From Thermodesulfobacteriota bacterium (GTDB taxonomy: Bacteria > Desulfobacterota_D > UBA1144 > Nemesobacterales > Nemesobacteraceae), in the NCBI GenBank assembly GCA_965209225.1, contig OZ242379.1, positions 934,762 through 998,761 on the forward strand: a stretch of 64,000 bases of DNA. The letters run 5' to 3'. Below the pieces are notes generated by a model. That model was not told the origin of the DNA. It did no database searches and saw only the letters and a program-made list of their open reading frames with translations. Positions 14,052-50,889 of this stretch are shown here, one piece after another; positions within the stretch are counted from its first letter, which is position 1; every line of letters starts with the position of its first letter. A program made the translations under genes and the position numbers.

Positions 14052-14081
14052 GTATCAACAACCAAGTAAACTTACAATCAG

Positions 14082-14342: not shown

Positions 14343-14427
14343 GGCTGCGAACAATAGAGTCTGACACCTCACGGCTTTAAACAGAACGGTTTAAGCGGAG
14401 GAAAATGGACACGGGAGCACAGAACGC

Positions 14428-15303: not shown

Positions 15304-15470
15304 TGGGCAATCCAAGTGTAGTTGCCTTAGCTCGAGTTCGTCAAATGATAAAAGGTTTTGAACTCACTGATGGTAAGCACTTTTAGCGGAACACACTTTT
15401 TCGCTTGGCACTACTGTTTTGTGAAGTTTCCTGTTTTCGGGTTTTTACATCAGGACGACTGTACTGACAA

Positions 15471-15498
15471 GTGTTCCAACCATGGTGTTCCAACCATG
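15471..15498. repeat. tandem 14-bp direct repeat (gtgttccaaccatg x2) upstream of recombinase gene
   Basis: Exact adjacent duplication; each copy is mostly palindromic around ccatgg. Confidence 0.6.
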
Positions 15499-15699
15499 TC
15501 CTTGTTAACCTACTGTATCTTGGCACCTATCCTCACCCAACTGTGCATACGCCTACGTATAGAATTTTACCTAAGCTTAAGAAGTCCCATTTTTTAAATA
15601 GCTTTTTTCTTCCGACCAACCTCCAGTATGTCTGTAGTTATAGAAGCCTTGAAAACAAATCGGATTTTCTCCATTAAAATCAAAATTAAGGAGGAAAAA

Positions 15700-21060: not shown

Positions 21061-22200
21061 CTATGCCGTTCCCAGCATTTCCGATACTTTGGCAACACCA
21101 GCTCCGCTCGTGAAGTCGTGTCCCAAGGATCCCAGAATGGATTCAAGGGCCGAGACAAACGCCACCATGTCGTTTCGGTCGACATCTCCTATGTGGGATA
21201 CCCTGAAGATTTTTCCCTTGGCGTGGTCCTGTCCGCCCGCGACGGTCATACCGAATTTTGCCTGAAGCTCGGAGATGATCTTCCCCGCCCCTATCTCTTC
21301 AGGAGCTACTCCCACGGTAAGAGCCGGGCTCGCCGCGTCAGTGGTGAAAAGATCTATGTTGATCGCTTGTAGCGCCTCTCGGGTCGCAAGCGACATCAGT
21401 TCGCGTTTTCTGTAAATATTGTCCATTCCCTCTTCCATGAACCCTTCTATAACCTTGCCGAGGCCGATTATCAGAGTGACGGCGGGAGTCCATGGCGTCG
21501 TGTTTTTCTGGGCGCTTTTCTGGTAGTCGGCAAAGTTGAGATAGAACTTCGGGAGATCCGAGGTTTTGCTGAATTCCCAGGCTTTCTCGCTCATCGCCGC
21601 GAATGAAAGTCCCGGAGGAAGCATGAAAGCCTTCTGCGAGCCGCCAACTAGAACATCTATTCCCAGCTTGTCAAACGGGAGAGGAAACACCCCGACGGCG
21701 GTTATGCCGTCAACTATGAGCAGCACGTCGTCTCTTTTTGATGTAATTGCCGCGACTTGGTCGGTGGGATGCTTGACCCCTGTGGAGGTCTCGCTTGCCT
21801 GCATCAGAACAGCCCTTATCGAGGGGTCGCTATCGAGTTTTTCCTCTATCACTGCCGGGGAAACCGCCTCGCCCCAAGCAACCTCTATTTCATCCACCTC
21901 TAGTCCGTAGGCCCTCGCGATTTTCCCCCATCTCTCTCCGAACTTTCCGCCGTTTACCGTGATCACCTTGTCGCCCGCGCGAAGGGTGTTTACCACGGCT
22001 CCTTCCATTGCGCCGGTTCCCGAAGCCGCAAGTATGAAAACTTCGGTTTCTGTCTGAAAAATCTGTTTCAAACCTTCTCTTGCCTTCTCGAATACGGCTT
22101 CAAATTCCTTGGTTCTGTGATGGATGAGCGGTCTTGCCATCTCAACCATTATTTCGCTTGGGACCGCCACGGGGCCGGGGGTCAGCAGCAATCTTTTCAT
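21061..22200 (-). CDS. class V aminotransferase (alanine-glyoxylate / serine-pyruvate aminotransferase family)
   Basis: LLTPGP start, GGSQKA PLP-lysine motif. Confidence 0.85.
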   Translation of the reverse strand: MKRLLLTPGPVAVPSEIMVEMARPLIHHRTKEFEAVFEKAREGLKQIFQTETEVFILAASGTGAMEGAVVNTLRAGDKVITVNGGKFGERWGKIARAYGLEVDEIEVAWGEAVSPAVIEEKLDSDPSIRAVLMQASETSTGVKHPTDQVAAITSKRDDVLLIVDGITAVGVFPLPFDKLGIDVLVGGSQKAFMLPPGLSFAAMSEKAWEFSKTSDLPKFYLNFADYQKSAQKNTTPWTPAVTLIIGLGKVIEGFMEEGMDNIYRKRELMSLATREALQAINIDLFTTDAASPALTVGVAPEEIGAGKIISELQAKFGMTVAGGQDHAKGKIFRVSHIGDVDRNDMVAFVSALESILGSLGHDFTSGAGVAKVSEMLGTA

Positions 22201-22523
22201 TTTGATTTATCTCCTGTAGTGCTAGGAATTGGATAAAAACCGATAAACTACCCTAACATTCCTACTATTTCAATTGTGTTGTCGGTGCTTGTCGGTGCTC
22301 CGTTTAGTAATGAGTCAATTTGATCAGCGCAGTAAACTTTGGGAAAGAATTGACAAAATATCTTAGCATCTAAAAGGGGATTGGGCATATGATTCCCATT
22401 TCCTTTATATTTCCATTATCCGAGGCACGAAAAGATCAAGAAACGATCAAAGATTGGTTTACAATACCCGCTGATTCTAGGGTGCTTACTGTAAACACCT
22501 GACTTAGTGAACTGGAACAACTC

Positions 22524-22913
22524 ATGGCAATAATATACTCGGACGAGGAGATTAGATCGTTGGTTCAAGAACATAAGCCTTTGCCTGTTGATTGGCGTAA
22601 ACAGTCTGGTCTGAGACCCAAACGAGGTCACGATGAGCAGCAACTGGAATTTGTTGGTAGCGCAAACAGCAAATTCCGTATTATTTTCAGACGGAGCCAT
22701 ATTAATCCACTTGATTTTTCGATCATTCTTGCTGTTCATGTCCCTCAATCAAATCAAGTTTTTCGCCTTCGTCGTTACAATGGTAGAAGCCACGAGCACA
22801 CAAACCATATTGAAGATGTGACTTTCTACGATTTCCATATTCACTTTGCTACGGAGCGATATCAGGGGATTGGGGCACGGGAAGATGCCTATGCTCAACC
22901 GACCGATCGCTAG
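22524..22913 (+). CDS. hypothetical protein in AT-rich region flanking IS unit
   Basis: 129-aa ORF, no motif recognised. Confidence 0.3.
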   Translation: MAIIYSDEEIRSLVQEHKPLPVDWRKQSGLRPKRGHDEQQLEFVGSANSKFRIIFRRSHINPLDFSIILAVHVPQSNQVFRLRRYNGRSHEHTNHIEDVTFYDFHIHFATERYQGIGAREDAYAQPTDR

Positions 22914-22934
22914 AGCGATCTCTACGGAGCTCTT

Positions 22935-22942
22935 AAATGTTT
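22935..22942. repeat. left target-site duplication AAATGTTT
   Basis: Identical 8-mer directly abuts both IS termini, same strand. Confidence 0.7.
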
Positions 22943-23019
22943 GGGAATTATGTATTTGACTTGACAAGACATAACACAGGATATAGAATTGTGCCTAATC
23001 CCCTGAAAGGGCGCAATTC

Positions 23020-23388
23020 ATGGACTCTTGGAAGTTTGCTTGCACTGAAACCGCTATTTTCCTCTTCGGAGTTTGGGTAAGTTCTATGTTTCCAGATTTT
23101 TCCCATTGGATTTGGCCTGTTGTAGCCTTAATGCTTTTTCTTTTTGGAATGGGAAAGTTCGACACGCCTACAAATTGGATTTTCCGAAGAGAAAAAAAAC
23201 CTGCTGATGACAATATCCATGCAGAATTAGTTGCTCTTGCGAGAAGAGTTCAGCGAGGCGAAGCTACTTTCGAGCAGGAAAAACGATATCATACAATTCT
23301 TGCACGGCATCCCCTTTATTGGCATGATAACCCTGAAGATTACGAGAAGATAATACAGAAAGCACGTTCATTGGCCAGATTTGCATAA
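23020..23388 (+). CDS. cargo: hypothetical membrane protein
   Basis: Two predicted TM helices, inside IS unit. Confidence 0.4.
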   Translation: MDSWKFACTETAIFLFGVWVSSMFPDFSHWIWPVVALMLFLFGMGKFDTPTNWIFRREKKPADDNIHAELVALARRVQRGEATFEQEKRYHTILARHPLYWHDNPEDYEKIIQKARSLARFA

Positions 23389-23607
23389 TTGTTGATATTG
23401 TTCAGTCGCTTTCTTCGTCTTCGTAAATAGTAATTTCTTCCCCTTCCGGTGGAACCCCCATCAGAACTCGGACTACATCGTCAAACTCCAACTGCGACAT
23501 GTCGGGAATCTGTGGTTCGGTTTCTTTCTTGTCTGGCATTACTGGGCACCCCTAAGCTTTTCAGAATGGGTACAGTCTACCTGATTCCGAAGATTTTTCA
23601 ACGTCAT

Positions 23608-23979
23608 CTAATGTCTCTGCTCTCCCATTATCCCTAACTGTTCTCGGATTTTTCTTTCCTGTTCACTTAACCCTTGTTTCTCCTTCTTTTTCATTCCCAA
23701 TTGCCTTCTGAACTCATCCCCGCTGTCGTCCATAGAGAGAAAAGAACCCATTTTGGAAGCAACGCTTCTTCTTGGTTTTCTTTCGGGCAACTCTATGCCA
23801 TGCTTGATGGCTATTTTCCGTAATATCTCCAGTTCTTCCTCTTGTGCCTCGGCTCTTTTTGCTTCTTGGTGGCTTGAGGCTATCTTAAAGGCTGCATTAG
23901 TCGTAGTGTTGAAAACACCGAGCACAAGCATAAAAAACATAAAAACACCACCAATCAGAATCCATATCAGAAACAACAT
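23608..23979 (-). CDS. cargo: hypothetical membrane-anchored protein
   Basis: N-terminal TM helix then charged coiled region. Confidence 0.4.
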   Translation of the reverse strand: MLFLIWILIGGVFMFFMLVLGVFNTTTNAAFKIASSHQEAKRAEAQEEELEILRKIAIKHGIELPERKPRRSVASKMGSFLSMDDSGDEFRRQLGMKKKEKQGLSEQERKIREQLGIMGEQRH

Positions 23980-23992
23980 TCTTCAAACCTCC

Positions 23993-24142
23993 TTAGTCAT
24001 TCGGGCAATGGCACTCGATTGCGTTCCCTGCTGTGTCCACGACCTTGGTTTCGCAGTTCACGGGGCAATCCTCCAAGTCGAACAGGTCGCAAGCTGCGAC
24101 GAGCAGAAAAAGCAAAACGCACAACCCCCAAACAACTTTCAT
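23993..24142 (-). CDS. cargo: small Cys-rich lipoprotein (about 49 aa; mature peptide about 31 aa with 5 Cys)
   Basis: MKVVWGLCVLLFLLVAAC lipobox signal followed by CPVNC...CHC. Confidence 0.4.
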   Translation of the reverse strand: MKVVWGLCVLLFLLVAACDLFDLEDCPVNCETKVVDTAGNAIECHCPND

Positions 24143-24155
24143 TTTCTCAAGCCCC

Positions 24156-24446
24156 CTAATCGGGTAAGACCCGGTAATCTCCGTACTCATTTATAATCAC
24201 TTCATAGGAATATGTTGAGCGATTACATTTCACCTTGAATCCTGTTTTCCCCCACAGTTTTCGCACTATCGTTACACTGTTGCATGGATAGCCAGATGCG
24301 TGAATAGTGGCAACCAGTGTACCAACATAGCTGGATAAGCCTGAACCGATATACCCATCGGGTTCTATAGTTACGGTCTTTGCGTCCCAGGAAAAGAACA
24401 CAACAGAGGCAACGAAAATGACGCTAAACAGCAGAACCTTCTTCAT
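24156..24446 (-). CDS. cargo: small secreted hypothetical protein
   Basis: N-terminal signal peptide MKKVLLFSVIFVASVVF. Confidence 0.45.
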   Translation of the reverse strand: MKKVLLFSVIFVASVVFFSWDAKTVTIEPDGYIGSGLSSYVGTLVATIHASGYPCNSVTIVRKLWGKTGFKVKCNRSTYSYEVIINEYGDYRVLPD

Positions 24447-24787
24447 GAGTCACCTCCTGTTTTCTTCAGCAGTTCCTTCATCCTGTCGAAATCTGTTACC
24501 AGCCGGGGTTCTCCAGCGAAACAGTCCTTATCGTAAGAAACCATCGTATAAGCGGACTTCTCGCCTATTGACGCAAAGACATACATGTCCTTGGTTTTCG
24601 GGTCGCATCCGATAACTTCAACCTCGTCAAAGTCACCTGCATCCTTTAACTCTTTATAGGCTTCCTCAAGGGCGACCGTCATCGCCCGGCATGAAAGGTG
24701 ACAGATTTCTTCTCCCCGTGCCTGATTGACGGCACAAGCCACCCCCATGACCCCAAACAGGGTCATAAAGACCAACAATGTTCTCAT
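24443..24787 (-). CDS. cargo: small secreted/lipoprotein hypothetical protein with 4 Cys
   Basis: Signal peptide MRTLLVFMTLFGVMGVACA; 4-bp overlap with downstream gene. Confidence 0.45.
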   Translation of the reverse strand: MRTLLVFMTLFGVMGVACAVNQARGEEICHLSCRAMTVALEEAYKELKDAGDFDEVEVIGCDPKTKDMYVFASIGEKSAYTMVSYDKDCFAGEPRLVTDFDRMKELLKKTGGDS

Positions 24788-25052
24788 AGTAATCTCCTAC
24801 GTGTTTGGGGTTAACAGAGGTGGCACGGGGTGCCTCGGCATAAATTGGTGCCGGGTCTTGTCGACACCAGATAGAATCTGAAGTTGCGTGTATTCCCCGA
24901 GACCGGGTCTTGTATTGGACGCAAACCCGGCGGAGCGGGTTCTATCCAGTGTCGACATTCTAACTATATCACACCGAGGAAGGGTAATCTATGAGAATTT
25001 CGTAATCTTGAGAAACGGGTATAATTCCCGCAAGCAAAATTAGGAGGTTGTT

Positions 25053-25298
25053 GTGACGGAAGACCTGCTTAAGGATGTAAAAGGGGATTTTGAAAACATA
25101 GAAGAGGTAGAAAAACACGACGAAAGAGGAAGCGATTTCTTGTTTGTTAAAGATGTACGCTTTAGAAAATCAAAAGACCCAGAAGGCAATACTTTGGTGA
25201 TTTTTGAATTTCAAGGTCTTACGAAGCTTAGGGCCGTAAAAATATCTGCTGAAAATCTCAAACGACTTGAGAAGCAGATTCAGATTTATCGCAGTTGA
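25053..25298 (+). CDS. cargo: hypothetical protein (GTG start, ggagg RBS)
   Basis: 81-aa ORF. Confidence 0.35.
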   Translation: MTEDLLKDVKGDFENIEEVEKHDERGSDFLFVKDVRFRKSKDPEGNTLVIFEFQGLTKLRAVKISAENLKRLEKQIQIYRS

Positions 25299-25503
25299 CG
25301 AAGATGTTTATATCCCAGCCGTTGACATTAAACCACAGTATAGAATCTCTGTAATTTCCGCTTGAAGAGAATCCTTCCTCCGCTATTTTGCCAGCCAAAT
25401 CTCGAAGTTTGACTATCGTTTCCTCAAATTCCCTGATTAACGGCCTTTCATAATCCGAATGGCTATCGGCAGTTTTTTCTACAAGTTCCGGCAATGCTTC
25501 CAT
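25258..25503 (-). CDS. cargo: hypothetical protein
   Basis: 81-aa ORF convergent with previous. Confidence 0.3.
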   Translation of the reverse strand: MEALPELVEKTADSHSDYERPLIREFEETIVKLRDLAGKIAEEGFSSSGNYRDSILWFNVNGWDINIFVNCDKSESASQVV

Positions 25504-25537
25504 TTCCCATCTTACTACTGGGGAAATGGGTAAGTTG

Positions 25538-26476
25538 TCAAGAGATAAGTTCTTTGTAAGTCAGCCTTTTCCCCACAAGTCCGTTTATCGTGGCGTTTAT
25601 CTGGTCCATGGTGTCCATGGGGCGGACATTGTTGCGGTTTGAAAACTCGTCAATGTACTTCTGAAGGTGCTTGACGCTCATCTTGTGGTAAATGCCGTAG
25701 TATCCACGCTTCAGTAATGCCCAAAAGCTTTCTACGCCGTTAGTGTGGGCTTCCCCTTTAACGTATTCTCCGACCGAGTGATGAACCGTTGCGTGTTCAT
25801 ATCCCTTTTCCTTCAGTCCCGAGTAGCTTTTGTAGTCATCGGTAAATATCACGCTTCCCTTTTCCACATGACTGAGGATGATCCAGTGAAGGGTTTGAGC
25901 ATCAGTGCTTTCCACCCGCAGAGCTCTTACCTTTTTGCTTTCCCTATCCTTGATTCCCACAACCGGAGTTTTGCCTACAGCGCCACGTCCCTTTTTGAGC
26001 TTCTTTTTCTCGTGCTTGTTCTTTTCCAGTCCTCCGAGGTAAGCCTCGTCAACCTCTACGATCCTTCCGAAAAGACGGGAAGCGTTGTTGGCCCAGCCCT
26101 GGCGGATTCTGTGAGCAAGGAACCACGCTGACCTCTGCTGTATTCCGAGATCGTTTCCGAGCTTGGTACTGGATACACCCTTTAAGGAAGTGGACATAAG
26201 GTAGATAGCCATCAACCATTTCCGGTAGGAGAGGGGGCTTTCTTCCATTAAAGTTCCGGTCTTGGCACTGAAATACTTGCGGCAGGGCTTGCACCAGTAA
26301 GGCATTTCCTTGTGGCTTGCTTCCCTGGTTTCTTCGGAACCGCAACGAGGGCAGCTCCTTCCGTCCGCCCATCTCATTTTCTCAAAATGCTTCCTGGCTT
26401 TCTCTTCCGTGTTGAAGAGTTCCATAAAGTCATAAAAACTGATTCTTTCTCTTGCTGACTTGGGTTTCTGTCCCAT
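25538..26476 (-). CDS. IS1595-family transposase (N-terminal zinc ribbon + ISXO2-like DDE domain)
   Basis: CPRCGSEET...CKPCRKYF zinc ribbon; DDE region with HTNGVESFWALLKRG. Confidence 0.9.
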   Translation of the reverse strand: MGQKPKSARERISFYDFMELFNTEEKARKHFEKMRWADGRSCPRCGSEETREASHKEMPYWCKPCRKYFSAKTGTLMEESPLSYRKWLMAIYLMSTSLKGVSSTKLGNDLGIQQRSAWFLAHRIRQGWANNASRLFGRIVEVDEAYLGGLEKNKHEKKKLKKGRGAVGKTPVVGIKDRESKKVRALRVESTDAQTLHWIILSHVEKGSVIFTDDYKSYSGLKEKGYEHATVHHSVGEYVKGEAHTNGVESFWALLKRGYYGIYHKMSVKHLQKYIDEFSNRNNVRPMDTMDQINATINGLVGKRLTYKELIS

Positions 26477-34439: not shown

Positions 34440-34679
34440 ATGCCCGCAAACCTGCATGTTCGAAATGTTGACGATGATCTTATAATTCGTCTCAAACGTC
34501 GCGCGGCCCGCCACGGACGTTCTGCGGAGGCTGAACACCGGGAAATCTTACGCCAGGCGCTTTCCGCCGAAGCTGAACCCGCGTTTGAGGAGATTGCGGC
34601 AAAGCTCCGCCAGATGACTGGAGGCCGCAAGCATACTCCGGCAGAATATCTTTTGCGCGAAGGGCGTAACAAACGGTGA
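34440..34679 (+). CDS. vapB: ribbon-helix-helix antitoxin (FitA/VapB-like)
   Basis: MPANLHVRNVDDDLIIRLKRRAARHGRSAEAEHREIL Arc/RHH pattern; 4-bp overlap with PIN toxin gene. Confidence 0.8.
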   Translation: MPANLHVRNVDDDLIIRLKRRAARHGRSAEAEHREILRQALSAEAEPAFEEIAAKLRQMTGGRKHTPAEYLLREGRNKR

Positions 34680-35122
34680 ACAGTTACGTTATTGATGCTA
34701 GTGTCGCGGTCAAGTGGATTGTGGAGGAGGAAGGGACTGCCGAAGCTCTGACTGTTCTGGGAAATGCCCAATTATCTGCGCCCGACCTTTTAATCGCGGA
34801 ATGTGCCAACATCCTATGGAAAAAAGTCCGGCTTGATGAATTCTCCAAGGACGAAGCTATGGTCGGAGCGCAGTTTCTTGAACAGGCGGAAGTTGAACTT
34901 CTTCCGACCCGGCACTTGCTTGGTTCCGCTACTGCTCTTGCGGTTGAGCTTGATCATCCCGCATACGACTGTCTTTATCTGGCGACAGCACTGGAGAGAA
35001 ACTGCCAATTTGTAACCGCGGACAAACATTTTAAGCGCAAAGTCTCGGAGCATCCGTCAGAACGATTTTCAGACGTGATATTATCTCTTTCTGAGGCCGC
35101 GGTGGCCCTTGCTGAAGACTGA
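34676..35122 (+). CDS. vapC: PIN-domain toxin (VapC/FitB-like)
   Basis: IDASVAVKW...acidic PIN residues; 148 aa. Confidence 0.85.
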   Translation: MNSYVIDASVAVKWIVEEEGTAEALTVLGNAQLSAPDLLIAECANILWKKVRLDEFSKDEAMVGAQFLEQAEVELLPTRHLLGSATALAVELDHPAYDCLYLATALERNCQFVTADKHFKRKVSEHPSERFSDVILSLSEAAVALAED

Positions 35123-35285
35123 GTTATGCATGCGTCTGGGACAGCAGAGGCCATAGATCAAAGACCCCTATCCACTCCCCTCGTTTTTAAACCGTGGTCT
35201 TAAGATGTGTCAGACTGGATTGTTTTGTTGTGTACCTTAAGTTAAACTTGGCACACAGGACTATTTTATTCTCGGAGGGTTTTGA

Positions 35286-35699
35286 ATGAAGTTTGGAGAC
35301 TATCTAAAGGGGATAAGGAAAAGAAGAAAGATTACCCAGGAAAACCTCGCTCGATCTCTTGAGGTCTCGAGCGTGTACATACATCAGCTTGAAACCGGAA
35401 AGGTTGATGCGCCCTCTTTTGACCGCTGCCAGCAGATATCTTCAATTCTGGGGGTGAAGGTTGAGGAAATCTGGAGCGTCTCAAGGACGGAAAGACTCAA
35501 AAGATTCATCGAAAAAGAGGCCATATCAGAACAGGAGCTCGAGGTTCTCACAAAGGAGGAGAAGATGCTCCTTAAGCTTTACAGAAATCTAGACGGGGAA
35601 ATAAAAAAGGATTTTGCCGGAATGGTATTCATGCTTCTCCGACATTCACAGGACAAGAATCTACGCAAGATACTTGAAGAGTTTGTAAAATGCGCCTGA
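35286..35699 (+). CDS. XRE-family HTH transcriptional regulator with C-terminal extension
   Basis: ITQENLARSLEVSSVYIHQLETGK HTH_3 pattern. Confidence 0.7.
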   Translation: MKFGDYLKGIRKRRKITQENLARSLEVSSVYIHQLETGKVDAPSFDRCQQISSILGVKVEEIWSVSRTERLKRFIEKEAISEQELEVLTKEEKMLLKLYRNLDGEIKKDFAGMVFMLLRHSQDKNLRKILEEFVKCA

Positions 35700-36451
35700 A
35701 CCAGAAATTTGGACTGCTGTTCAAAATATCAATGGTTGAGCTGGGCATCATAGCCCTTATAGGTGTGGTGTTCTATTTTCAGTTTGATAACGCGAAAAAA
35801 GACTTTGTCACCAGAACCAAAGCCATAGCCGAGACTATAGGAGACCAGGCGACCAGTTTCTATCGGGATCACGGAGAGGGGTCTACAAGCGACGAGTTTT
35901 ATCTTTTTCTTGACCAGAGGCTGGGCAGAGAGAAGCTGTTTAACACTTTCGGGGTCTCTCCCAAATTTTTCAGCGTTACTTTTATGAAACAGCCGGAAGA
36001 CGAAATGGCTTCCGGACACTTTCTGGAGAACACTTATCCGCCCGAGGGATACTCGGTTGAAAGATACGCAGGAAAGATTTCCGTTTCCGTTCCGTTTCTC
36101 TCCCCGCAGGTCAATGGGCCGCTCGGCATAGTCAAGATCGATTCCGACACGAAAACATTGATGAAAAAGGTTTTCGCCGACAACTTTCTGCTCTACGTAG
36201 CTATTTTAGTGGTGCTAAACAATCAGGCCTTTATTCTTCATCTGTTCTTAAGAAGGAGAAAGGAGGAGATCCCCTTCAGCGAGGGTTATCTCAGGGAACA
36301 CTCCATAAGCGCGCTTAAGCTGATGCACAAGGTGCTTGGAGACATAATAGAAGATCACGCTTCTGAAGATAAAAAGACTGCGGAAAAGAAAACTGCGGAT
36401 CCAGCGAACGTAATTTCGATTTTAAACGTGGGCACTAAACCGGAAAAATGA
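35690..36451 (+). CDS. hypothetical bitopic membrane protein (TM-periplasmic domain-TM)
   Basis: Two hydrophobic helices flanking a 140-aa region; overlaps neighbours. Confidence 0.5.
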   Translation: MRLNQKFGLLFKISMVELGIIALIGVVFYFQFDNAKKDFVTRTKAIAETIGDQATSFYRDHGEGSTSDEFYLFLDQRLGREKLFNTFGVSPKFFSVTFMKQPEDEMASGHFLENTYPPEGYSVERYAGKISVSVPFLSPQVNGPLGIVKIDSDTKTLMKKVFADNFLLYVAILVVLNNQAFILHLFLRRRKEEIPFSEGYLREHSISALKLMHKVLGDIIEDHASEDKKTAEKKTADPANVISILNVGTKPEK

Positions 36452-36813
36452 AAAAGAGCTTCCTGATTACGTCATTATTTGTCCTCGCGGCCTTTGTTCT
36501 TGCGGCCTGCACCGCGGAGGAATCCGCCGTTGAACTCGACGGGCCGGTTCTCCAGACCGAGAATTTTGACGGAAGCGTGGATTTTAACGGCGCCGTGGTG
36601 AACACGGCGAATTTCCCGGTACAGTCAGTTTACGTCGTCATATTCGTAAAGGATTCGGATGGAGATGCCCTTGCCGCGACCTCCGCGCTTGTTGAGGAAG
36701 GGGAAAGACTTGATCCGACGGAAAGCTTTTTCTTCACAGCCAGTTTCGATAGCCTTCCCCCGGAAGCCCATTCAAGGGAAGTGCAAATTTACTACGATCT
36801 TGTGGAAGAGTAG
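36448..36813 (+). CDS. hypothetical lipoprotein
   Basis: LAAC lipobox signal peptide. Confidence 0.5.
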   Translation: MKKSFLITSLFVLAAFVLAACTAEESAVELDGPVLQTENFDGSVDFNGAVVNTANFPVQSVYVVIFVKDSDGDALAATSALVEEGERLDPTESFFFTASFDSLPPEAHSREVQIYYDLVEE

Positions 36814-36831
36814 TTTTCAATCCCCGGTTCG

Positions 36832-37914
36832 TTGATTTCTCCTTTTAAAAAATTGGCTTTCGGTAAACTTCGTCGCCCAGATTCCCTTCTTGAGGGGAAA
36901 GATGCCATGGTTGGGATAGATATAGGTTCAAGTTCCGTCAAGATTGTGGAACTTTCCTACGGGGGTGGGAACTACCGGCTTGAGAATATGGGAGAGGCTA
37001 TGTTTCCCAGAGATGCAATAGTCCGCAAGTCAATTTCAAGGGGCGACATAGTTTCAGGGGTTGTATCAAGTCTCGTTTCCAGACTCGGCGTGAGAACGAA
37101 AAAGGCGGTTATAGGAGTTTCCGGCGAAGCCGTTGCTTTAAAAGTCGTAAATGTTCCCAGAATTTTTCTCGGAGAGGACATGGAAAAACTTGTTCCGGAC
37201 CTCGTGAGAACCACTCTTCGCAAAGAGGTTAAGGGGGTTAATTACAGCTACACTCCGCTTTTCCGCCGCAACGGGGAATCCGAGGAGACCCAGGTGCTGG
37301 TTGCGGCCGTTTCGAAAAAAACGGCGCGGGAGTATAAAAATTCGCTTTTCTCGGCGGGACTCCGCGCCCAGATAATTGATGTTGACGCCATGGCCCTTTC
37401 AAACTCCTATACAGCTTTTTGCCGAGGTCGCGGAGAGAATGTGGCGCTTGTGAATATCGGAGCTTCAGGGACTAACTTGAGCGTTTTGGATGGTACAGTG
37501 CCTTTTTTACTGAAGGATATTTCGCTTGGGGGACAATGGATTACGCTTCGTTTGATGGAGGAATTCAAAATCACTTACGAGGAGGCGGAGAGAATAAAGT
37601 TCAGCCTTAAAGGTTATGGAAGATATGACGAGATAGAAAGTGTTTTCACTGATTTCGTTGCTCGTGCCACCGATGAGATAAAGACGGTTCTTGATGAAGC
37701 AGGAGACGTAATCGACCGGATAATTCTTTCCGGGGGATCTTCAAGAATAGCAACTCTCGCCGGTGCACTTGGAGAGGCCACCGGGGTTCAGGTCGAGATT
37801 TCGAATCCTTTTCGGAATATCACCGTTTCGGATTCGCGTTTTGATCCTGAATACATTGAACATCTGGCCCCGAAGATGACGGTTGCGGCGGGACTTGCGC
37901 TGAGGGGTTTGTGA
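36832..37914 (+). CDS. pilM: PilM-like actin-fold ATPase (type IV pilus assembly PilM family), orphan
   Basis: FKKLAFGK...MVGIDIGSSSVKIVEL N-terminus and actin-like fold length; TTG start at 36832 or ATG at 36907. Confidence 0.75.
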   Translation: MISPFKKLAFGKLRRPDSLLEGKDAMVGIDIGSSSVKIVELSYGGGNYRLENMGEAMFPRDAIVRKSISRGDIVSGVVSSLVSRLGVRTKKAVIGVSGEAVALKVVNVPRIFLGEDMEKLVPDLVRTTLRKEVKGVNYSYTPLFRRNGESEETQVLVAAVSKKTAREYKNSLFSAGLRAQIIDVDAMALSNSYTAFCRGRGENVALVNIGASGTNLSVLDGTVPFLLKDISLGGQWITLRLMEEFKITYEEAERIKFSLKGYGRYDEIESVFTDFVARATDEIKTVLDEAGDVIDRIILSGGSSRIATLAGALGEATGVQVEISNPFRNITVSDSRFDPEYIEHLAPKMTVAAGLALRGL

Positions 37915-37952
37915 ATAGAAGAAAAAACTGGTAAGAAATTCCGCATACCGGA

Positions 37953-38186
37953 TTAGTTTCTTGAAGGTATAAGGTGGACTATCAGAGAAACCGCAAGCGC
38001 GACCGCGCCGACTACCGAGAGAACCTTAAAGTAAAAAGACCAGTCGAGTGAGAATTTGAGGGAAATTCCGAAACCTACTATAAAAAGGACAAGGGCGGTT
38101 ATGAGAATCCCTCCGAGAATGTTTGTTCTAAGCATGAAAAAACTCCAGAAAGCAGAATTAATAAGAAACGGCACTATTGTATACAA
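37953..38186 (-). CDS. hypothetical small membrane protein
   Basis: Two TM helices. Confidence 0.3.
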   Translation of the reverse strand: MYTIVPFLINSAFWSFFMLRTNILGGILITALVLFIVGFGISLKFSLDWSFYFKVLSVVGAVALAVSLIVHLIPSRN

Positions 38187-40212: not shown

Positions 40213-41331
40213 TCAGTTAACGGTATCCGGCAAGCGGTAGCTTGTGCTTCGTCCGCCGCCGGGGTTCTGAATAAAAATGCCGCGTGACTTTAAGTGCTGA
40301 ATGTCCCGTAATGCCGTATCTGTGGAGCACTTGGCCAGTTTTGCATATTTTGAGGTGTTCATGTGTCCCTTAAAATCATCCTCGAGCATACGGTTAATAA
40401 TCAGACGCTGACGCTTGTTGACAGGCTGCCGATTAATCTTTTCCCATAACTGCGATTTAAACAAGACGGTGCTCAGCGTATCTTCAGCGCTGGCAATTGC
40501 GCGACCAAGGCAATCCAGAAACCATTCAAGCCAACCCGTTACCTCCGGCGTGCCGCGTTGCTGGTTTTCCAACTGGTCATAATAATCCTTGCGCTCAGAT
40601 TCAAATTGCGATGAAAGGCTGTAAAAGCGGTCTACCATGCCGTCAGCGCGCGCCAGGGCCATATCGGCAATCGCCCTTGCAATACGTCCATTACCGTCTT
40701 CAAATGGATGAATCGTCACAAACCACAGATGGGCAATACCGGCTCTGAGCACGGGGTCAGTATCATCTTTGCTCTCAAACCATACCAGAAACCTCGTCAT
40801 CTCACGTTCAAGGTGCTCTGCGTTCGGAGCCTCGAAATGAACTTTTTCACGTCCTGCAGGACCTGAAACCACTTGCATGGGATCGGATTCGACGGAGCGC
40901 CAGCCGCCGACTGTGATGCGACGCATGCCGCTGCGACTTGTTGGAAACAGTGCCGCATGCCAGTCAAACAATCTGTCTTTTGTTAAGGGCCTGGCAGATT
41001 GCTGGGTCGCATCCAGCATCATTTCAACAATACCCTCAACATCTTGGTTCACTGACGTAATGCCGGCGATATCAATGCCTAGTCGGCGAGCGATTGATGA
41101 GCGAACCTCTTGCGGGTTCAGATTTTCTCCCTCGATGGCTGATGATTTAACAACATCGCTTGTCAGTGTTCCGAGACTTGCTTCTTGCTTGAGTTCGAAA
41201 CCTAATCCTTCCATTCTGCCTAACAGACGACCCTGACGGTGTCGAATATCTGCAAGCTTGGAAGCGAGTTTTTTGAGATTCCAAGTGAAGTCCGGCCAGT
41301 TATGATGCTCATGTATCCACATATCATTCAC
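40213..41331 (-). CDS. Fic family protein with DUF4172-type N-terminus and C-terminal wHTH; compositionally foreign
   Basis: HPFEDGNGRIARAIAD Fic motif, SSAIEGE inhibitory motif; codon usage (CTG/CGT/GCG-rich) differs from neighbours. Confidence 0.9.
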   Translation of the reverse strand: MNDMWIHEHHNWPDFTWNLKKLASKLADIRHRQGRLLGRMEGLGFELKQEASLGTLTSDVVKSSAIEGENLNPQEVRSSIARRLGIDIAGITSVNQDVEGIVEMMLDATQQSARPLTKDRLFDWHAALFPTSRSGMRRITVGGWRSVESDPMQVVSGPAGREKVHFEAPNAEHLEREMTRFLVWFESKDDTDPVLRAGIAHLWFVTIHPFEDGNGRIARAIADMALARADGMVDRFYSLSSQFESERKDYYDQLENQQRGTPEVTGWLEWFLDCLGRAIASAEDTLSTVLFKSQLWEKINRQPVNKRQRLIINRMLEDDFKGHMNTSKYAKLAKCSTDTALRDIQHLKSRGIFIQNPGGGRSTSYRLPDTVN

Positions 41332-48339: not shown

Positions 48340-50889
48340 CTAACGTTCCCGAGAGTCGGATACAGCCTGTTTTCCCCTCGGGCGTTTTTTCCACAAAGCC
48401 GCGGAGAACAACAGGGAGACTACAAGAAGCGAGTCAAACAAAACTCCCCCGGCCCTGGCGGAAGTTGCGGCGACCGCGCACCCTCCATCGTCGTCGCTTG
48501 TTTCAGGATGATATCCGGAACCGACTATAAGGGTCTGGCCATCGAGAAATCCGGGGAAATCCACTCTCTCCACGTAGCTAAGCTTCGGCACATCGCCCGG
48601 GGCCGTGCCTTCTCCAGAAAAAGCGGGAGTGGAATCAGTCGGATCATCCCAGAGGTACTCGACAAAGCCCTCCGCGTCCCCGGGCAGCAGCCCCAGGTCC
48701 CCGCACTGCCTCGGCTCACCATTTGCCACCTTTGCCACCTCGTCACCGACATTACATCCGTTGTCGTCCACAACATCGAGAGTCCCGTTTTCAAGCGCCG
48801 GGGAATTCCCGTTAAAAAACACAAGCCGGTCTCTCTCCGTCATCACAAACAGGTATACGGCCCCGTGTTTCCACGGAAGCGCTCTCCAGCAGTTGCGCAC
48901 AGAAGCCAGACTGGCGGGAGTCTGCCCGGCTTGTTCTACCTGCTCCGTGAAATGCTTCACGAATTCTTTCACGAAGCTCCTAAGCGTGTCACTGTCTGTA
49001 ACCTTGTTGGCAGTTGTCCCCTGCTTGAAATAGGGTTCTTCATCAATGATCTCACTTATGAAATAAGGACATCTTATATTGTCAAAACTTACGTCATCGG
49101 ACTCACGGTGAAGCCCGCCGAGGAGTATGAGTCCGCTTTTCCATATCGGATGCTCGAACCTGACGGCACATGCCTCCCTGTTTTCACTGTTCCGAACGCA
49201 GCCGCCGCCTTCATCGGCTTTTGCTTCTGCTATGAGTTCCGCAGCATCCAAGGTTCCGTTCTGCGCCTCAGGGTCGTGCGCGTGAGTATAGATCGTTCCG
49301 TTTTCATCTATCACCATGAGGTATATGGTGCCGTTTTTCCAGTCCCCTCCGTCCACGGTCAGGCTTTTCTCGAATCTTATGTTTTCGTTGGGACCCTCTA
49401 TGGCTTCCCAGTGAGCTTTCGCGTGCCGAACGAATTCGAGCATATCATCCCGGTCCGAAGCATCCACATCTCCGGCAGTTACGCTATGGGTGTGTTCGCC
49501 CTCGTGGGCCGAAGCCGTTTCGGGACCCGAGAGAAAAACAAGTGTCGCCAACGCACAGACGACGAAGGCTGCCGGTCCGCTTCGCGAAAAGACCCTCTTT
49601 GCTCCCGAGAGTTTTTCAAGGAAAACCGCTGGGAGCAAAAACAGAACTGTCATGAAGAAACTTAGCAGAGCGTTTCCGGGCGCGTCCGCTCCTCCCGCGA
49701 TAGCGCAGCCATTGTCGTCACCTGTTTCGGGATAGATGCCCGAACCCCAGATAATCCGACCCTCCCCATCGGTTGACGGAATCCATGTAACATAGGTTGT
49801 CTTGGGAGAATTGCCGGGGGCCTTGCCGGGTATCAGATTTCCTTCGGAATCGCGTATATCGTCATCAGGCGTAGTCGGGTCGTCCCAGAGATACTTGACA
49901 AACGCTCCTTCGCCGGAATCCAAATCCCTTACGGCTTCCACCAGTAAATCCCCGACATTGGTTCCGTTGTCGTCTTCAACATCCAGGCTTTTGTTCTCAA
50001 AACTGGGCGTGTTGCCGTTTAGCACGACCAGCCGGGTATCCGCGGTCATTGCGAAAAGGTAGATGGAATCGTTTTTCCATGGCGAGACCCTGAAACAGCT
50101 AACCGAGTTGATAAGCTCAAGCAAGCCTGCCCTCTCCCGCCAGTCAACATAGAATTGAGCAAATTCATCTACAAACTTCCTGAGCGTATCCCTGTCCACC
50201 ACGGCGGCGGCGCTTGTTTCGGGAACATAATGAGGGCATTTCAGATTGGAAAAGGATACATCTGAGAAATTATGGTGAAGCCCTCCGACCAGAATGGTCG
50301 GAAGCGGAAATGAAAGACTGTCGAGGCGCAGGTTGAATTTAACGGCGCATGCCGCTCTGTCTTCATTCCCGAAAGTGTAATTGCGACAAGCCGCTCCATC
50401 TTCTTTTTCCCGTAACTCGTCCATGAGCCCTTTCATAACGTCATTCTTGTGTGACAGGATTCCGCCTTGCGCGGGAGGATAATACGGGTGAGGTTGCTGT
50501 ATCACGCCATCTCCGCTCGTCCGGAAGATATATATGCTGTCTTTGCGCCAGTCACCTCCTTCCACTTCGAGGAGCTGCAGGAAGGGCGCGAGGCCGGTGT
50601 TGTAGTCTGTTAGCTGCTCCATGTGAGCCCTTGCGTGCAGCATGAAGGCTTTCATCTCTTCCATGTCCCCGGCTGTGACGTCTCTTGCTGTTATGCTGTC
50701 GGGGCTGTGGTTGTCTCTTGTGCCTGCACGGCTCGGGATATCAGGGATTTCATGGGCCTGAAGCGGACCCTCATGGGAAAAGAAGACAAGCAACGCCAGC
50801 ACGCAGAGAAAAAAGACCGGATTTTGTGTTTTTATAACGGCGCTGGAATTAATGGAACTTCCCGGTTTCCGTAAGAATGCGGTACTCAT
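48340..50889 (-). CDS. large membrane protein with two paralogous ~350-aa periplasmic Cys-containing domains (internal tandem duplication), 4 predicted TM helices
   Basis: Repeat 1 and repeat 2 align (HE..., GDW..IY, CRNYTFGNEDRAACAVKF vs CVRNSENREACAVRF, LKCPHYVPE vs IRCPYFISE, YLWDDPT in both). Each repeat is followed by GC-small-residues plus a TM segment, and the C-terminal tail is basic. Confidence 0.6.
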   Translation of the reverse strand: MSTAFLRKPGSSINSSAVIKTQNPVFFLCVLALLVFFSHEGPLQAHEIPDIPSRAGTRDNHSPDSITARDVTAGDMEEMKAFMLHARAHMEQLTDYNTGLAPFLQLLEVEGGDWRKDSIYIFRTSGDGVIQQPHPYYPPAQGGILSHKNDVMKGLMDELREKEDGAACRNYTFGNEDRAACAVKFNLRLDSLSFPLPTILVGGLHHNFSDVSFSNLKCPHYVPETSAAAVVDRDTLRKFVDEFAQFYVDWRERAGLLELINSVSCFRVSPWKNDSIYLFAMTADTRLVVLNGNTPSFENKSLDVEDDNGTNVGDLLVEAVRDLDSGEGAFVKYLWDDPTTPDDDIRDSEGNLIPGKAPGNSPKTTYVTWIPSTDGEGRIIWGSGIYPETGDDNGCAIAGGADAPGNALLSFFMTVLFLLPAVFLEKLSGAKRVFSRSGPAAFVVCALATLVFLSGPETASAHEGEHTHSVTAGDVDASDRDDMLEFVRHAKAHWEAIEGPNENIRFEKSLTVDGGDWKNGTIYLMVIDENGTIYTHAHDPEAQNGTLDAAELIAEAKADEGGGCVRNSENREACAVRFEHPIWKSGLILLGGLHRESDDVSFDNIRCPYFISEIIDEEPYFKQGTTANKVTDSDTLRSFVKEFVKHFTEQVEQAGQTPASLASVRNCWRALPWKHGAVYLFVMTERDRLVFFNGNSPALENGTLDVVDDNGCNVGDEVAKVANGEPRQCGDLGLLPGDAEGFVEYLWDDPTDSTPAFSGEGTAPGDVPKLSYVERVDFPGFLDGQTLIVGSGYHPETSDDDGGCAVAATSARAGGVLFDSLLVVSLLFSAALWKKRPRGKQAVSDSRER

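What the first reader, a model, noticed from the sequence alone, without database searches (positions are those of the whole stretch)
35286..37914. Four-gene translationally coupled operon: XRE regulator, bitopic membrane protein, lipoprotein and an orphan PilM-like actin-fold ATPase
The PilM family protein normally precedes pilNOPQ, but here no PilN/O/P/Q follow. The three upstream genes overlap by 10 and 4 bp. An XRE-controlled envelope module built around a solitary PilM/FtsA-like scaffold suggests a non-pilus function such as a signalling or positioning complex.
Basis: partly seen in the sequence, partly recalled or inferred. Interest (0 to 1): 0.5.

Follow-up and report, generated by a model that had tools for sequence, protein, structure and literature searches.

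The report
Orphan pilM left by operon decay
In this Dadabacteria genome a pilus-assembly gene (pilM) has lost its four partner genes but is still kept by selection, next to an unrelated three-gene sensor-regulator unit; it is a case of operon decay, not a newly built four-gene machine.

Summary
The four ORFs are real. The 10-bp and 4-bp overlaps are real. The PilM call passes the curated HMM cut-offs, and no pilNOPQ lies anywhere in the 64 kb. Two details are wrong. The membrane protein has two TM helices around a Cache-like periplasmic domain, so it is not bitopic. pilM is separated from the lipoprotein gene by 18-93 nt, so it is not overlapped.

I compared 76 Dadabacteria loci. XRE regulator, membrane sensor and FxLYD lipoprotein form a phylum-wide trio that occurs with or without pilM. 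In many relatives the trio sits next to a complete pilMNOPQ operon, which in three relatives checked carries a c-di-GMP-I riboswitch leader. The window's clade (32 species-level genomes) lost pilN-pilQ and the genes after them. A second clade did the same independently. Three genomes lost pilM too.

The orphan pilM is not a pseudogene. It is intact in 31 of 32 genomes, dN/dS is 0.23, ATP-binding motifs are kept and the AF2 model is a full PilM fold. The central segment containing subdomain 1C is the most constrained part of canonical PilM (dN/dS 0.02). In the orphan it is the least constrained (0.31).

PilM is therefore a remodelled survivor. Whether pilNOPQ exists elsewhere in these genomes could not be tested.

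The parts
35229..35257 (+). Imperfect inverted repeat (TGTGTACC-N13-GGCACACA) around a -10-like TTAAGTTAAAC, 30-57 nt upstream of the XRE start. It is a candidate promoter/operator of the trio.
   Evidence: Read from the sequence. A GTTAAA(A)TT element at the same position is shared by clade-B relatives, and a related TATAATGTAAAATT by other Dadabacteria. The consensus scan did not flag it. This is inference only.
35286..35699 (+). XRE-family HTH regulator, 137 aa: an N-terminal HTH plus a helical C-terminal half of about 70 aa.
   Evidence: HTH_3 E=1.6e-10 and HTH_31 E=5.6e-9. It is 58-98% identical across the 76 Dadabacteria loci. dN/dS is 0.055 in the window's clade and 0.01-0.02 elsewhere.
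35690..36451 (+). Two-TM membrane protein, 253 aa, with a periplasmic Cache/PDC-like domain and a conserved cytoplasmic helix (GYLxEHSIxALKxMHKxLGDIIEDH). It overlaps the XRE gene by 10 bp.
   Evidence: No Pfam or NCBIfam hit. 177 homologues, all about 250 aa. Only 31 clusters among 1.84 billion representatives. AF2 pLDDT is 69.5, with TM1-alpha/beta-TM2-helix. Foldseek hits are almost all extracytoplasmic sensor domains (WalK, CitA, CqsR, PctA, DcuS), with E from 2e-4 to 0.1.
36448..36813 (+). Lipoprotein, 121 aa, with an FxLYD-type domain. It overlaps the membrane-protein gene by 4 bp.
   Evidence: Invariant lipobox Cys21. The FxLYD_dom model matches 23 of 27 family members, best E=2.7e-9. 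The window member scores 18.6 bits, below the cut-off of 23.
36814..36906 (+). Spacer between the lipoprotein gene and pilM, or an N-terminal extension if a TTG at 36832 or 36853 is the start. No promoter-like or terminator-like site was found in it.
   Evidence: The canonical pilM promoter-like element of relatives (TTGCAA-N17-TGGTTAAAT) and the riboswitch are absent here.
36907..37914 (+). Orphan pilM, 335 aa from ATG 36907. Alternative starts are TTG 36853 (353 aa) and TTG 36832 (360 aa).
   Evidence: PF11104 172.6 bits and TIGR01175 167.7 bits. PDB PilM matches. AF2 pLDDT 90.1. Intact in 31 of 32 clade genomes. dN/dS 0.23. ATP motifs are kept and the central segment containing subdomain 1C is remodelled.
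37915..37952 (.). Deletion scar: 38 nt between the pilM stop and the stop of the convergent miniprotein gene. In relatives this position holds pilN, pilO, pilP, pilQ and one to three further genes.
   Evidence: Compare L038 and L079 (trio-pilMNOPQ-extra genes-miniprotein-RNase) with the window.
37953..38135 (-). Conserved 60-aa two-TM miniprotein (MLRTNILGG...). It is the right-hand boundary of the deletion and not part of the pilus genes.
   Evidence: Present in every arrangement that reaches the RNase gene, including genomes without pilM. dN/dS 0.087.

Best explanation
Two unrelated things lie side by side.

(1) A phylum-wide, translationally coupled trio: an XRE regulator, a two-TM membrane protein with a Cache-like periplasmic domain but no enzymatic output domain, and an FxLYD lipoprotein. 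Its most likely working is a membrane-sensor-controlled transcription switch. The lipoprotein and periplasmic domain would sense an envelope or extracellular cue. The invariant cytoplasmic helix of the membrane protein would hold or release the soluble XRE regulator. This mechanism is inferred, not shown.

(2) pilM is the surviving first gene of an ancestral pilMNOPQ type IVa pilus operon. In the window's clade a deletion removed pilN, pilO, pilP, pilQ and the genes after them, and the long pilM leader seen in most relatives (promoter-like element, and in some a c-di-GMP-I riboswitch) is missing. pilM now abuts the trio and is probably transcribed by read-through from it (inferred). The orphan PilM is still a selected, folded, nucleotide-binding actin-like protein. 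However, the central segment containing subdomain 1C has lost most of its constraint and its canonical motif. From prior knowledge, 1C forms one wall of the PilN-binding cleft. I therefore think PilM no longer works through PilN and serves a residual or new cytoplasmic role whose partner is unknown.
For: Trio is independent of pilM. XRE, membrane protein and lipoprotein are present in all 76 distinct loci. Three genomes have trio-miniprotein-RNase with no pilM. Two have no pilM within the fetched locus (10 kb either side). Remote homologues of the membrane protein are still paired with an XRE gene beside unrelated genes.

Ancestral operon. A full pilMNOPQ lies downstream in 24 loci and divergently upstream in 4. 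L038 and L079 show trio-pilMNOPQ-extra genes-miniprotein-RNase, which is the window's order plus the missing genes. Canonical pilM has a conserved promoter-like element and a TTG start. L049, L052 and L075 have a c-di-GMP-I riboswitch at 59-75 bits, preceded in L049 by TTGACA-17-TATTGT. The window has neither.

Recurrent loss. On an NJ tree the window's 32-genome clade and a separate 6-genome clade each keep pilM alone.

Selection. The ORF is intact in 31 of 32 genomes. About 12 stop codons would be expected at 0.3 neutral substitutions per site. dN/dS is 0.23, against 0.074 for the membrane protein and 0.15 for the RNase.

Remodelling. PilM identity between canonical and orphan clades is 0.36, against 0.64 among canonical ones. 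The membrane protein gives 0.56 against 0.68. Of 124 canonical near-invariant columns, 62 are changed. These are concentrated in residues 69-172: 39 changed and 17 kept there, against 23 and 45 elsewhere, Fisher p=1.3e-4. The canonical motif IPWElEQyiP is replaced. Segment dN/dS is 0.31 in the orphan and 0.022-0.025 in canonical PilM. Subdomain 1C maps to residues 76-136 of the model. ATP motifs, including the Lys equivalent to T. thermophilus K26, are kept (PMC6325625).
Against: Whole genomes could not be searched, so a relocated pilNOPQ is not excluded. The only indication is weak. No clade-B chromosome length appears among the top 120 PilQ or non-orphan PilM hits, and both lists are truncated. 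All genes of this clade have raised dN/dS, so part of the PilM relaxation is genome-wide: the PilM/membrane-protein ratio is 3.1, against 2.0-2.6 in canonical clades. Many changed positions are newly fixed within the clade (S70G, E94K, W98D, D114S, S199P), which fits a new partner as well as it fits drift on the stem branch. The assignment of the diverged segment to the PilN-binding cleft rests on my recollection of the PilM:PilN structures (2YCH, 5EOU), because the papers were not held. The NJ tree uses only about 510 aa and has no support values. The trio's mechanism has no direct evidence, and the Cache-like fold match is weak.
Confidence: 0.7

Rival explanations
1. The four genes are one dedicated XRE-controlled envelope module in which a solitary PilM/FtsA-like scaffold docks onto the membrane protein and lipoprotein, forming a signalling or positioning complex. 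On this reading PilM has been exapted as the cytoplasmic partner of the trio.
For: In the window's clade the spacer has shrunk to 18-93 nt, has no detectable promoter or terminator, and is fairly conserved. Co-transcription with the trio is therefore likely. The orphan has newly fixed residues in the central segment containing subdomain 1C and is under purifying selection. PilM needs a membrane partner to reach the membrane (PMC6325625), and the neighbouring membrane protein has an invariant cytoplasmic helix.
Against: The trio exists unchanged with full pilMNOPQ, with no pilM, and in distant lineages beside other genes. The membrane protein's cytoplasmic helix is essentially the same in clades with and without orphan pilM, so it shows no sign of adapting to a new partner. 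The diverged PilM segment is the least constrained part of the protein (dN/dS 0.31), which looks more like loss of an interface than gain of one. A second orphan clade keeps a 250-300 nt spacer.
Confidence: 0.1
2. pilNOPQ, together with pilB/C/T and pilins, is encoded elsewhere in these genomes. PilM still works in an ordinary type IVa pilus or competence machine. Only the operon was split.
For: The orphan is selected, keeps the full PilM fold and keeps its ATP site. Absence elsewhere could not be tested. Split pilus loci are common in bacteria (general knowledge).
Against: The segment that is most constrained in canonical PilM becomes the least constrained, and its hallmark motif is lost. PilM diverged to 36% identity while its neighbours stayed at 56-65%. 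None of at least 13 clade-B chromosome lengths appears among the top 120 PilQ homologues, although a full-operon chromosome (2,667,483 bp) does. This last point is weak because the list is truncated. Within the second orphan clade one genome has lost pilM as well (L056), and one clade-B genome has a frameshift (L026), so pilM can be dispensed with.
Confidence: 0.15
3. The orphan pilM is a functionless relic on its way to deletion, and it looks intact only because too little time has passed.
For: It is the fastest-evolving of the six local genes. It is frameshifted in L026. It is lost entirely in L056, L048 and L057.
Against: It is intact in 31 of 32 species-level genomes, whose synonymous divergence reaches saturation. 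Neutral evolution would give about 12 stops at 0.3 substitutions per site, P=6e-6 per lineage. dN/dS is 0.23 overall and 0.19 in the nucleotide-binding half. All ATP motifs are invariant.
Confidence: 0.05

Closest known systems
PilM of the type IVa pilus alignment subcomplex (PilMNOP-PilQ); structures 2YCH, 5EOU/5EOX, 3JC8
   Same: Passes the PilM HMM cut-offs. Has the same four-subdomain actin-like fold, TM 0.87-0.90. The phosphate-1, phosphate-2 and adenosine motifs and the ATP-contacting Lys are conserved.
   Different: No pilN, pilO, pilP or pilQ follows it. The canonical 1C-helix motif of Dadabacteria PilM (IPWElEQyiP) is replaced. There is a 6-residue deletion near residue 265. It is only 24-41% identical to canonical PilM of the same phylum. 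The constraint profile is inverted.
pilMNOPQ operons of other Dadabacteria (for example L075/L002, L038, L049, L079)
   Same: Same chromosomal neighbourhood: fmt, amt, porin, tRNA-Phe, trio, pilM, then miniprotein, RNase II/R, DinG-like helicase.
   Different: The window lacks pilN-pilQ, the one to three genes that follow, the pilM promoter-like element and, where relatives have one, the c-di-GMP-I riboswitch.
Extracytoplasmic Cache/PDC sensor domains of histidine kinases and chemoreceptors (WalK, CitA, DcuS, CqsR, PctA)
   Same: The membrane protein has the TM-sensor-TM topology and a similar predicted alpha/beta fold.
   Different: It has no kinase, HAMP or MCP output, only a cytoplasmic helix of about 65 aa. 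No sequence-family match exists. The fold match is weak, with E from 2e-4 to 0.1 and model pLDDT of 69.5.
FtsA, and RodZ-MreB (an HTH protein that tethers an actin homologue to the membrane)
   Same: An actin-like ATPase encoded next to an XRE-type HTH protein and a membrane protein. FtsA shares the 1C subdomain.
   Different: The FtsA model scores 29.6 bits against a cut-off of 175.85. The HTH_25 (RodZ-type) match is 21.9 bits, below its cut-off of 24.6. The HTH protein has no TM segment. The pairing with pilM is secondary.
Pilus proteins reused outside pili (PilM/N/O homologues forming a cage around flagellar motors, PMC10823254)
   Same: A precedent that PilM-family proteins can take non-pilus roles.
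   Different: That case keeps PilN/PilO-like partners. Here PilM is alone and no new partner is identified. I saw only the abstract in the search listing.

Membership tests
PilM (PF11104 / TIGR01175) | Sequence scores above the curated family cut-offs | tested here: met
   PF11104 scores 172.6 bits (cut-off 27). TIGR01175 scores 167.7 bits (cut-off 133).
PilM (PF11104 / TIGR01175) | Actin-like fold with subdomains 1A, 1C, 2A and 2B | tested here: met
   AF2 pLDDT 90.1 and pTM 0.90. Foldseek TMq is 0.87 to 5EOU, 0.90 to 3JC8 and 0.89 to 2YCH. FtsA gives only 0.72-0.75.
PilM (PF11104 / TIGR01175) | Nucleotide-binding motifs, including the Lys next to the ATP phosphates (T. thermophilus K26) | tested here: met
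   GIDIGS..K12, D158xD160, NIGAS, G208-G209 and G276-G277-S278 are at least 90% conserved in the orphan clade. The role of the Lys is from PMC6325625.
PilM (PF11104 / TIGR01175) | Binds the N-terminal INLL(P) peptide of PilN in the 1A/1C cleft | not testable with these tools
   No complex prediction was available. Indirect evidence: the central segment containing 1C has lost its canonical motif and its constraint.
pilMNOPQ operon (type IVa pilus alignment subcomplex plus secretin) | pilM is followed by pilN (PF05137), pilO (PF04350), pilP (PF04351) and pilQ (secretin) | tested here: not met
   The window has a miniprotein gene and an RNase II/R gene after pilM. No such domain was found in the 64 window ORFs scanned. 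Relatives do have them.
   hhalign gives membrane protein vs PilN 1.1%, lipoprotein vs PilO 0.2% and membrane protein vs PilO 4.3%, aligning TM segments only. Both sets coexist in relatives.
XRE / Cro-C1 HTH regulators (PF01381) | HTH_3 domain above cut-off | tested here: met
   41.3 bits (cut-off 23).
FxLYD domain proteins (NF038353) | Domain model above cut-off | tested here: inconclusive
   The window protein scores 18.6 bits (cut-off 23). However, 23 of 27 orthologues match, best E=2.7e-9.
Cache/PDC extracytoplasmic sensor domains | Sequence or fold match to a Cache/PDC domain between two TM helices | tested here: inconclusive
   There is no Pfam hit. Foldseek hits are almost all of this class but weak: best E=2e-4, and TMt 0.52-0.57 to CitA/DcuS.
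FtsA (TIGR01174) | Equivalog score above cut-off | tested here: not met
   29.6 bits against a cut-off of 175.85.
RodZ (HTH_25 plus TM plus periplasmic domain) | RodZ-type HTH fused to a TM anchor | tested here: not met
   HTH_25 scores 21.9 bits, below its cut-off of 24.6. The 137-aa protein has no hydrophobic segment.
Known anti-phage defence systems (PADLOC) | Any component matching a defence-system model other than a generic HTH | tested here: not met
   Only HTH models hit the XRE protein. The membrane protein, lipoprotein and PilM gave no hit.

The most novel reading that the evidence does not exclude
After the pilus was lost, the orphan PilM was exapted as a stand-alone actin-like ATP-binding protein. 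It is now co-transcribed with the XRE / Cache-like sensor / FxLYD lipoprotein module and physically coupled to it. That would give a previously undescribed envelope signalling or positioning complex in marine and sponge-associated Dadabacteria. The same thing would have evolved twice, given the second orphan clade.
Probability: 0.1. Interest if true: 0.65.

Novelty: new variant of a known kind. Interest (0 to 1): 0.33.

Why it matters
PilM is normally regarded as useless without PilN, which tethers it to the membrane and links it to the rest of the pilus machine. Here a PilM has survived alone under purifying selection across a whole clade, and a second time independently. Its ATP site is intact, while the central segment containing subdomain 1C (the PilN-side subdomain) has been freed from constraint. 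This is a natural experiment on which parts of PilM serve PilN and which serve something else. It also flags a small, uncharacterised three-gene sensor-regulator unit that appears in every Dadabacteria locus recovered, by searching with its membrane protein. The practical lesson for annotation is that 'type IV pilus assembly protein PilM' in these MAGs should not be read as evidence for pili. None of this is a new kind of system, and the main result is that the apparent four-gene operon is an accident of gene loss.

Tried and rejected
1. Exact-sequence look-ups of the window's PilM (360-aa and 335-aa forms) found nothing, although P0241 is about 100% identical.

2. The cluster at 58353-62404, with PilM/N/O/Q-like gene sizes, encodes an AAA_14 ATPase, HPPK, a phosphoribosyltransferase and an M3 peptidase.

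3. I tested for pilQ elsewhere in clade-B genomes by matching chromosome lengths in homologue lists. The result is inconclusive because the lists stop at 120 hits and also miss known full-operon chromosomes.

4. The miniprotein's N-terminus (MLRTNILGG) resembles the PilN motif (MIRVNLLG). I rejected it as a PilN surrogate. The same N-terminus occurs in genomes with PilN and in genomes with no PilM, and the motif runs straight into the TM helix.

5. I looked for a shared XRE operator upstream of the trio and of canonical pilM. I saw only generic -10-like similarity (GTTAAATT) and no convincing shared dyad.

6. A literature search on Dadabacteria and pili returned nothing relevant. The PilM:PilN structure papers were not held.

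8. The promoter/terminator scan of the window locus found nothing informative.

9. In-frame read-through from the lipoprotein gene into pilM: the frame is open from 36814 in many relatives, but stops or frameshifts occur in others. I rejected it as a conserved feature.
Full report
**What is at the coordinates**

The window carries four same-strand ORFs.

| ORF | Coordinates | Length |
|---|---|---|
| XRE regulator | 35286-35699 | 137 aa |
| Membrane protein | 35690-36451 | 253 aa |
| Lipoprotein | 36448-36813 | 121 aa |
| pilM | 36832-37914 | 360 aa from TTG |

- **XRE regulator.** It is an XRE-type HTH protein: HTH_3 E=1.6e-10.
- **Overlaps.** The first three genes overlap by 10 bp (ATGCGCCTGA) and 4 bp (ATGA).
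- **PilM.** It passes curated cut-offs: PF11104 172.6 bits and TIGR01175 167.7 bits against 133. Its best solved relative is M. xanthus PilM (3jc8, E=5e-45). An AF2 model built with 34 homologues has pLDDT 90.1. It superposes on PilM structures at TM 0.87-0.90, ahead of FtsA at 0.72-0.75.
- **pilM start.** The start is ambiguous. ATG 36907 has a GAGGGG ribosome-binding site. It is the only available start in several relatives and is the one called in public data (335 aa). NCBI calls a 353-aa form, and two relatives lack a start codon at the ATG position. pilM therefore begins 18-93 nt after the lipoprotein gene and is not overlapped.
- **Downstream.** After pilM come 38 nt, a convergent 60-aa two-TM miniprotein gene (37953-38135) and an RNase II/R gene.
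- **Other pilus genes.** Pfam scans of 64 of the window's larger ORFs found none.

**Corrections to the description**

- **Membrane protein.** It has two hydrophobic helices (about residues 14-33 and 166-187), a periplasmic alpha/beta domain between them, and an almost invariant cytoplasmic helix (GYLxEHSIxALKxMHKxLGDIIEDH).
  - Foldseek hits of its model are almost all extracytoplasmic Cache/PDC sensor domains (WalK, CitA, DcuS, CqsR, PctA). The scores are weak.
- **Lipoprotein.** It has an invariant lipobox cysteine. 23 of 27 orthologues match the FxLYD domain model, best E=2.7e-9.
- **Not PilN or PilO.** Profile-profile probabilities are 1.1%, 0.2% and 4.3%. Genuine PilN and PilO coexist with both proteins in relatives.

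**Whose genome, and what relatives show**

Homologues of the membrane protein are named Candidatus Dadabacteria or Thermodesulfobacteriota MAGs. A genome-collection scan gave 75 distinct loci, one per species-level genome. One further locus came from a PilQ homologue. All of them carry XRE, membrane protein and lipoprotein in that order, and the 10-bp overlap is conserved. What follows the trio varies:

| What follows the trio | Loci |
|---|---|
| Full pilM-N-O-P-Q on the same strand | 24 |
| Full pilMNOPQ, divergent and upstream | 4 |
| pilM only, then miniprotein and RNase | 38 |
| No pilM, then miniprotein and RNase | 3 |
| No pilM within the fetched locus (10 kb either side) | 2 |
| Contig ends too soon to tell | 5 |

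- **Window order plus missing genes.** L038 and L079 show trio-pilMNOPQ-(one to three genes)-miniprotein-RNase. That is exactly the window's order plus the missing genes.
- **Conserved flanks.** The wider neighbourhood is also conserved: formyltransferase, ammonium transporter, porin and tRNA-Phe on the left, and a DinG-like helicase on the right.
- **The trio does not depend on pilM.**
  - The membrane-protein family is tiny, with 31 clusters among 1.84 billion representatives.
  - Its most distant members are still preceded by an XRE gene.
  - They are followed by unrelated genes: a REC-PilZ protein, a SPOR protein or a B12-binding protein.

**pilM belonged to a different transcription unit**

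- In most full-operon relatives, 200-500 nt separate the lipoprotein gene from pilM. The exceptions are L079 at about 100 nt and three loci with 1.7-2.1 kb insertions.
- The stretch just before the TTG start holds a conserved promoter-like element, TTGCAA-N17-TGGTTAAAT.
- In L049, L052 and L075 the spacer contains a c-di-GMP-I riboswitch (RF01051, 59-75 bits against a gathering score of 35). In L049 it is preceded by TTGACA-17-TATTGT.
- By eye, six further loci carry the same aptamer sequence.
- The window has no riboswitch. It has no promoter-like or terminator-like site between the lipoprotein gene and pilM.
- In this clade pilM is therefore probably transcribed by read-through from the trio. 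This is an inference.

**How often it happened**

I built a neighbour-joining tree from the concatenated trio proteins (about 510 aa, no support values).

- The window falls in a monophyletic group of 32 genomes that all have orphan pilM.
- A separate group of six orphan-pilM genomes is sister to full-operon genomes, and it contains one genome that has lost pilM as well.
- Two other pilM-less genomes lie elsewhere on the tree.
- The second orphan clade keeps a Cys-rich gene that the window's clade also lost.
- Loss of pilN-Q with retention of pilM thus seems to have happened at least twice.

**Is the orphan alive?**

Yes.

- The ORF is intact in 31 of 32 genomes of the clade. L026 has a 3' frameshift.
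- About 4% of single-base changes in this gene create stops. Roughly 12 stops would therefore be expected after 0.3 neutral substitutions per site.

Nei-Gojobori dN/dS values:

| Gene | Window's clade | Full-operon clades |
|---|---|---|
| XRE | 0.055 | 0.01-0.02 |
| Membrane protein | 0.074 | 0.03 |
| Lipoprotein | 0.16 | 0.04-0.05 |
| PilM | 0.23 | 0.07 |
| RNase | 0.15 | not computed |

- The whole clade evolves under weaker selection.
- PilM is only modestly more relaxed than expected. The PilM/membrane-protein ratio is 3.1, against 2.0-2.6 in full-operon clades.

**What changed in the protein**

- **Overall divergence.** Mean PilM identity is 0.64 among canonical Dadabacteria but 0.36 between canonical and window-clade proteins. 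For the second orphan clade it is 0.47. The membrane protein gives 0.68, 0.56 and 0.67. In the database the orphan family forms a tight cluster (100-46% identity), followed by a drop to 36% or less for canonical PilMs of any phylum.
- **Where the changes fall.**
  - Of 124 alignment columns at least 90% conserved in 27 canonical PilMs, 62 are no longer kept.
  - They are concentrated in residues 69-172: 39 changed and 17 kept there, against 23 and 45 elsewhere, Fisher p=1.3e-4.
  - In the model, residues 76-136 form subdomain 1C: strand, helix 90-103, two strands.
- **Lost motif.** The canonical motif on that helix, E-s-I-P-W-E-l-E-Q-y-i-P, has become K-L-v-p-D-l-V.
- **Newly fixed residues.** Several substitutions are newly fixed in the clade: S70G, S75A, E94K, W98D, D114S, E165S, S199P and T261V.
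- **ATP motifs kept.** GIDIGS..K, DxD, NIGAS, GG and GGS are retained. That includes the lysine shown to be needed for ATP binding in T. thermophilus PilM (PMC6325625).
- **Inverted constraint.** The central segment has dN/dS 0.022-0.025 in canonical PilM, where it is the most constrained third. In the orphan it has 0.31 and is the least constrained. The C-terminal half rises only from 0.08-0.10 to 0.19.
- **Link to PilN.** From my recollection of the PilM:PilN structures (2YCH, 5EOU), PilN's N-terminal peptide lies between subdomains 1A and 1C. [quoted passage not shown] The pattern fits loss of the PilN interface. The residue-level link is not verified.

**Interpretation**

- **Best-supported account.**
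  - The ancestral pilMNOPQ operon decayed, and its first gene survived as a selected, remodelled, nucleotide-binding protein.
  - It is now physically and probably transcriptionally attached to an unrelated, much older three-gene unit.
  - I put about 0.9 on the remnant origin and the independence of the trio, and about 0.5-0.6 on a PilN-independent role.
- **The trio.**
  - The most likely working is a membrane-sensor-controlled XRE switch: sensor domain plus lipoprotein outside, and sequestration or release of the regulator by the conserved cytoplasmic helix inside.
  - This is an inference from architecture only.
  - A module built around PilM does not fit the trio's distribution.
  - A secondary recruitment of PilM by the trio cannot be excluded (about 0.1).
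- **Relocated pilNOPQ.**
  - This could not be tested, because only about 20-kb loci were available.
  - The homologue lists are truncated.
  - I give it about 0.15.
- **Pure relic.** The selection data contradict it.

**Novelty and score**

- The gene is already annotated as PilM in public MAGs.
- I found nothing in the held literature about pili in Dadabacteria.
- The result is a variant of a known kind: a partner-less PilM with an inverted constraint profile, plus an uncharacterised phylum-specific sensor-regulator trio.
- The apparent four-gene operon is explained by gene loss.
- Interest is modest, at about 0.33.

Noticed in passing
L049:11268-11353, L052:11264-11349, L075:11282-11365 (relatives, not the window): A c-di-GMP-I riboswitch (RF01051, 59-75 bits) lies between the lipoprotein gene and pilM in full-operon Dadabacteria. 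In L049 a TTGACA-17-TATTGT promoter-like site precedes it. By eye, six more loci carry the same aptamer sequence. The pilMNOPQ operon there looks c-di-GMP-controlled.
   Followed up: partly
window 34440-35122 (+): A FitA-like RHH antitoxin (79 aa, E=5e-17) and a PIN-domain toxin (148 aa, E=4e-13) overlap by 4 bp. They sit between the DUF3574 gene and the XRE gene. Close relatives such as L004 have only about 150 bp at this spot, so this is a recent insertion.
   Followed up: partly
window 37953-38135 (-): A 60-aa two-TM miniprotein (MLRTNILGG...) is extremely conserved (dN/dS 0.087). It is present next to the RNase II/R gene in every clade. It has no family match apart from a weak hit to a CARF-TM model (E=1.2e-3). 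Its N-terminus superficially resembles the PilN INLL motif.
   Followed up: partly
window 11765-16659: A low-GC stretch (0.39-0.44) carries a Vsr endonuclease, a 360-aa ORF with no family, a Dcm-type cytosine methylase, an Mrr-type restriction enzyme and a tyrosine integrase. It looks like a mobile restriction-modification/defence island.
   Followed up: no
window 22000-26476: A second low-GC stretch (0.43-0.46) holds several 110-130-aa ORFs without any Pfam match and an IS1595-family transposase (25538-26476). An IS200-like Y1 transposase lies at 62411-63256.
   Followed up: no
window 417-1598 (-), 7941-8288 (+), 40213-41331 (-): There are three Fic-domain genes in 64 kb. One of them (7941-8288) is only the C-terminal part of the domain and looks like a fragment. 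The copy at 40213-41331 (DUF4172+Fic) is present, whole or in part, in many close relatives, and absent or degraded in others.
   Followed up: no
L079:10001-13159: The PilQ secretin of a 1.5-Mb Dadabacteria genome is 1052 aa, against about 600-640 aa in the others. The extra N-terminal region gives faint AMIN and cadherin-like hits.
   Followed up: no
window 36814-36906 and the same region of L004-L014: The reading frame of pilM is open all the way back to the lipoprotein stop codon and is the same frame as the lipoprotein gene. Several differences between close relatives fall on third codon positions, so a TTG-initiated N-terminal extension may be translated in some genomes. Other relatives have stops or frameshifts there.
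   Followed up: partly
L038:18225-18863, L065:12496-13137: A Cys-rich protein of about 212 aa (MKCxxCxKRKPKRYCPAKxASICPVCCGEKRG...) sits between the pilus genes and the miniprotein. The second orphan-pilM clade keeps it, and the window's clade has lost it.
   Followed up: no
window 48340-50889 (-): An 849-aa protein whose only recognised feature is a short Cache-domain match (dCache_2, E=4e-13). No output domain was detected.
   Followed up: no
L081:1479-2174, L083:2458-3543: In distant relatives of the XRE plus membrane-protein pair, the downstream gene encodes a response-regulator-PilZ (c-di-GMP-binding) protein, or, after a short 86-aa ORF, a SPOR-domain protein. This hints that the pair is linked to envelope or c-di-GMP signalling.
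   Followed up: no
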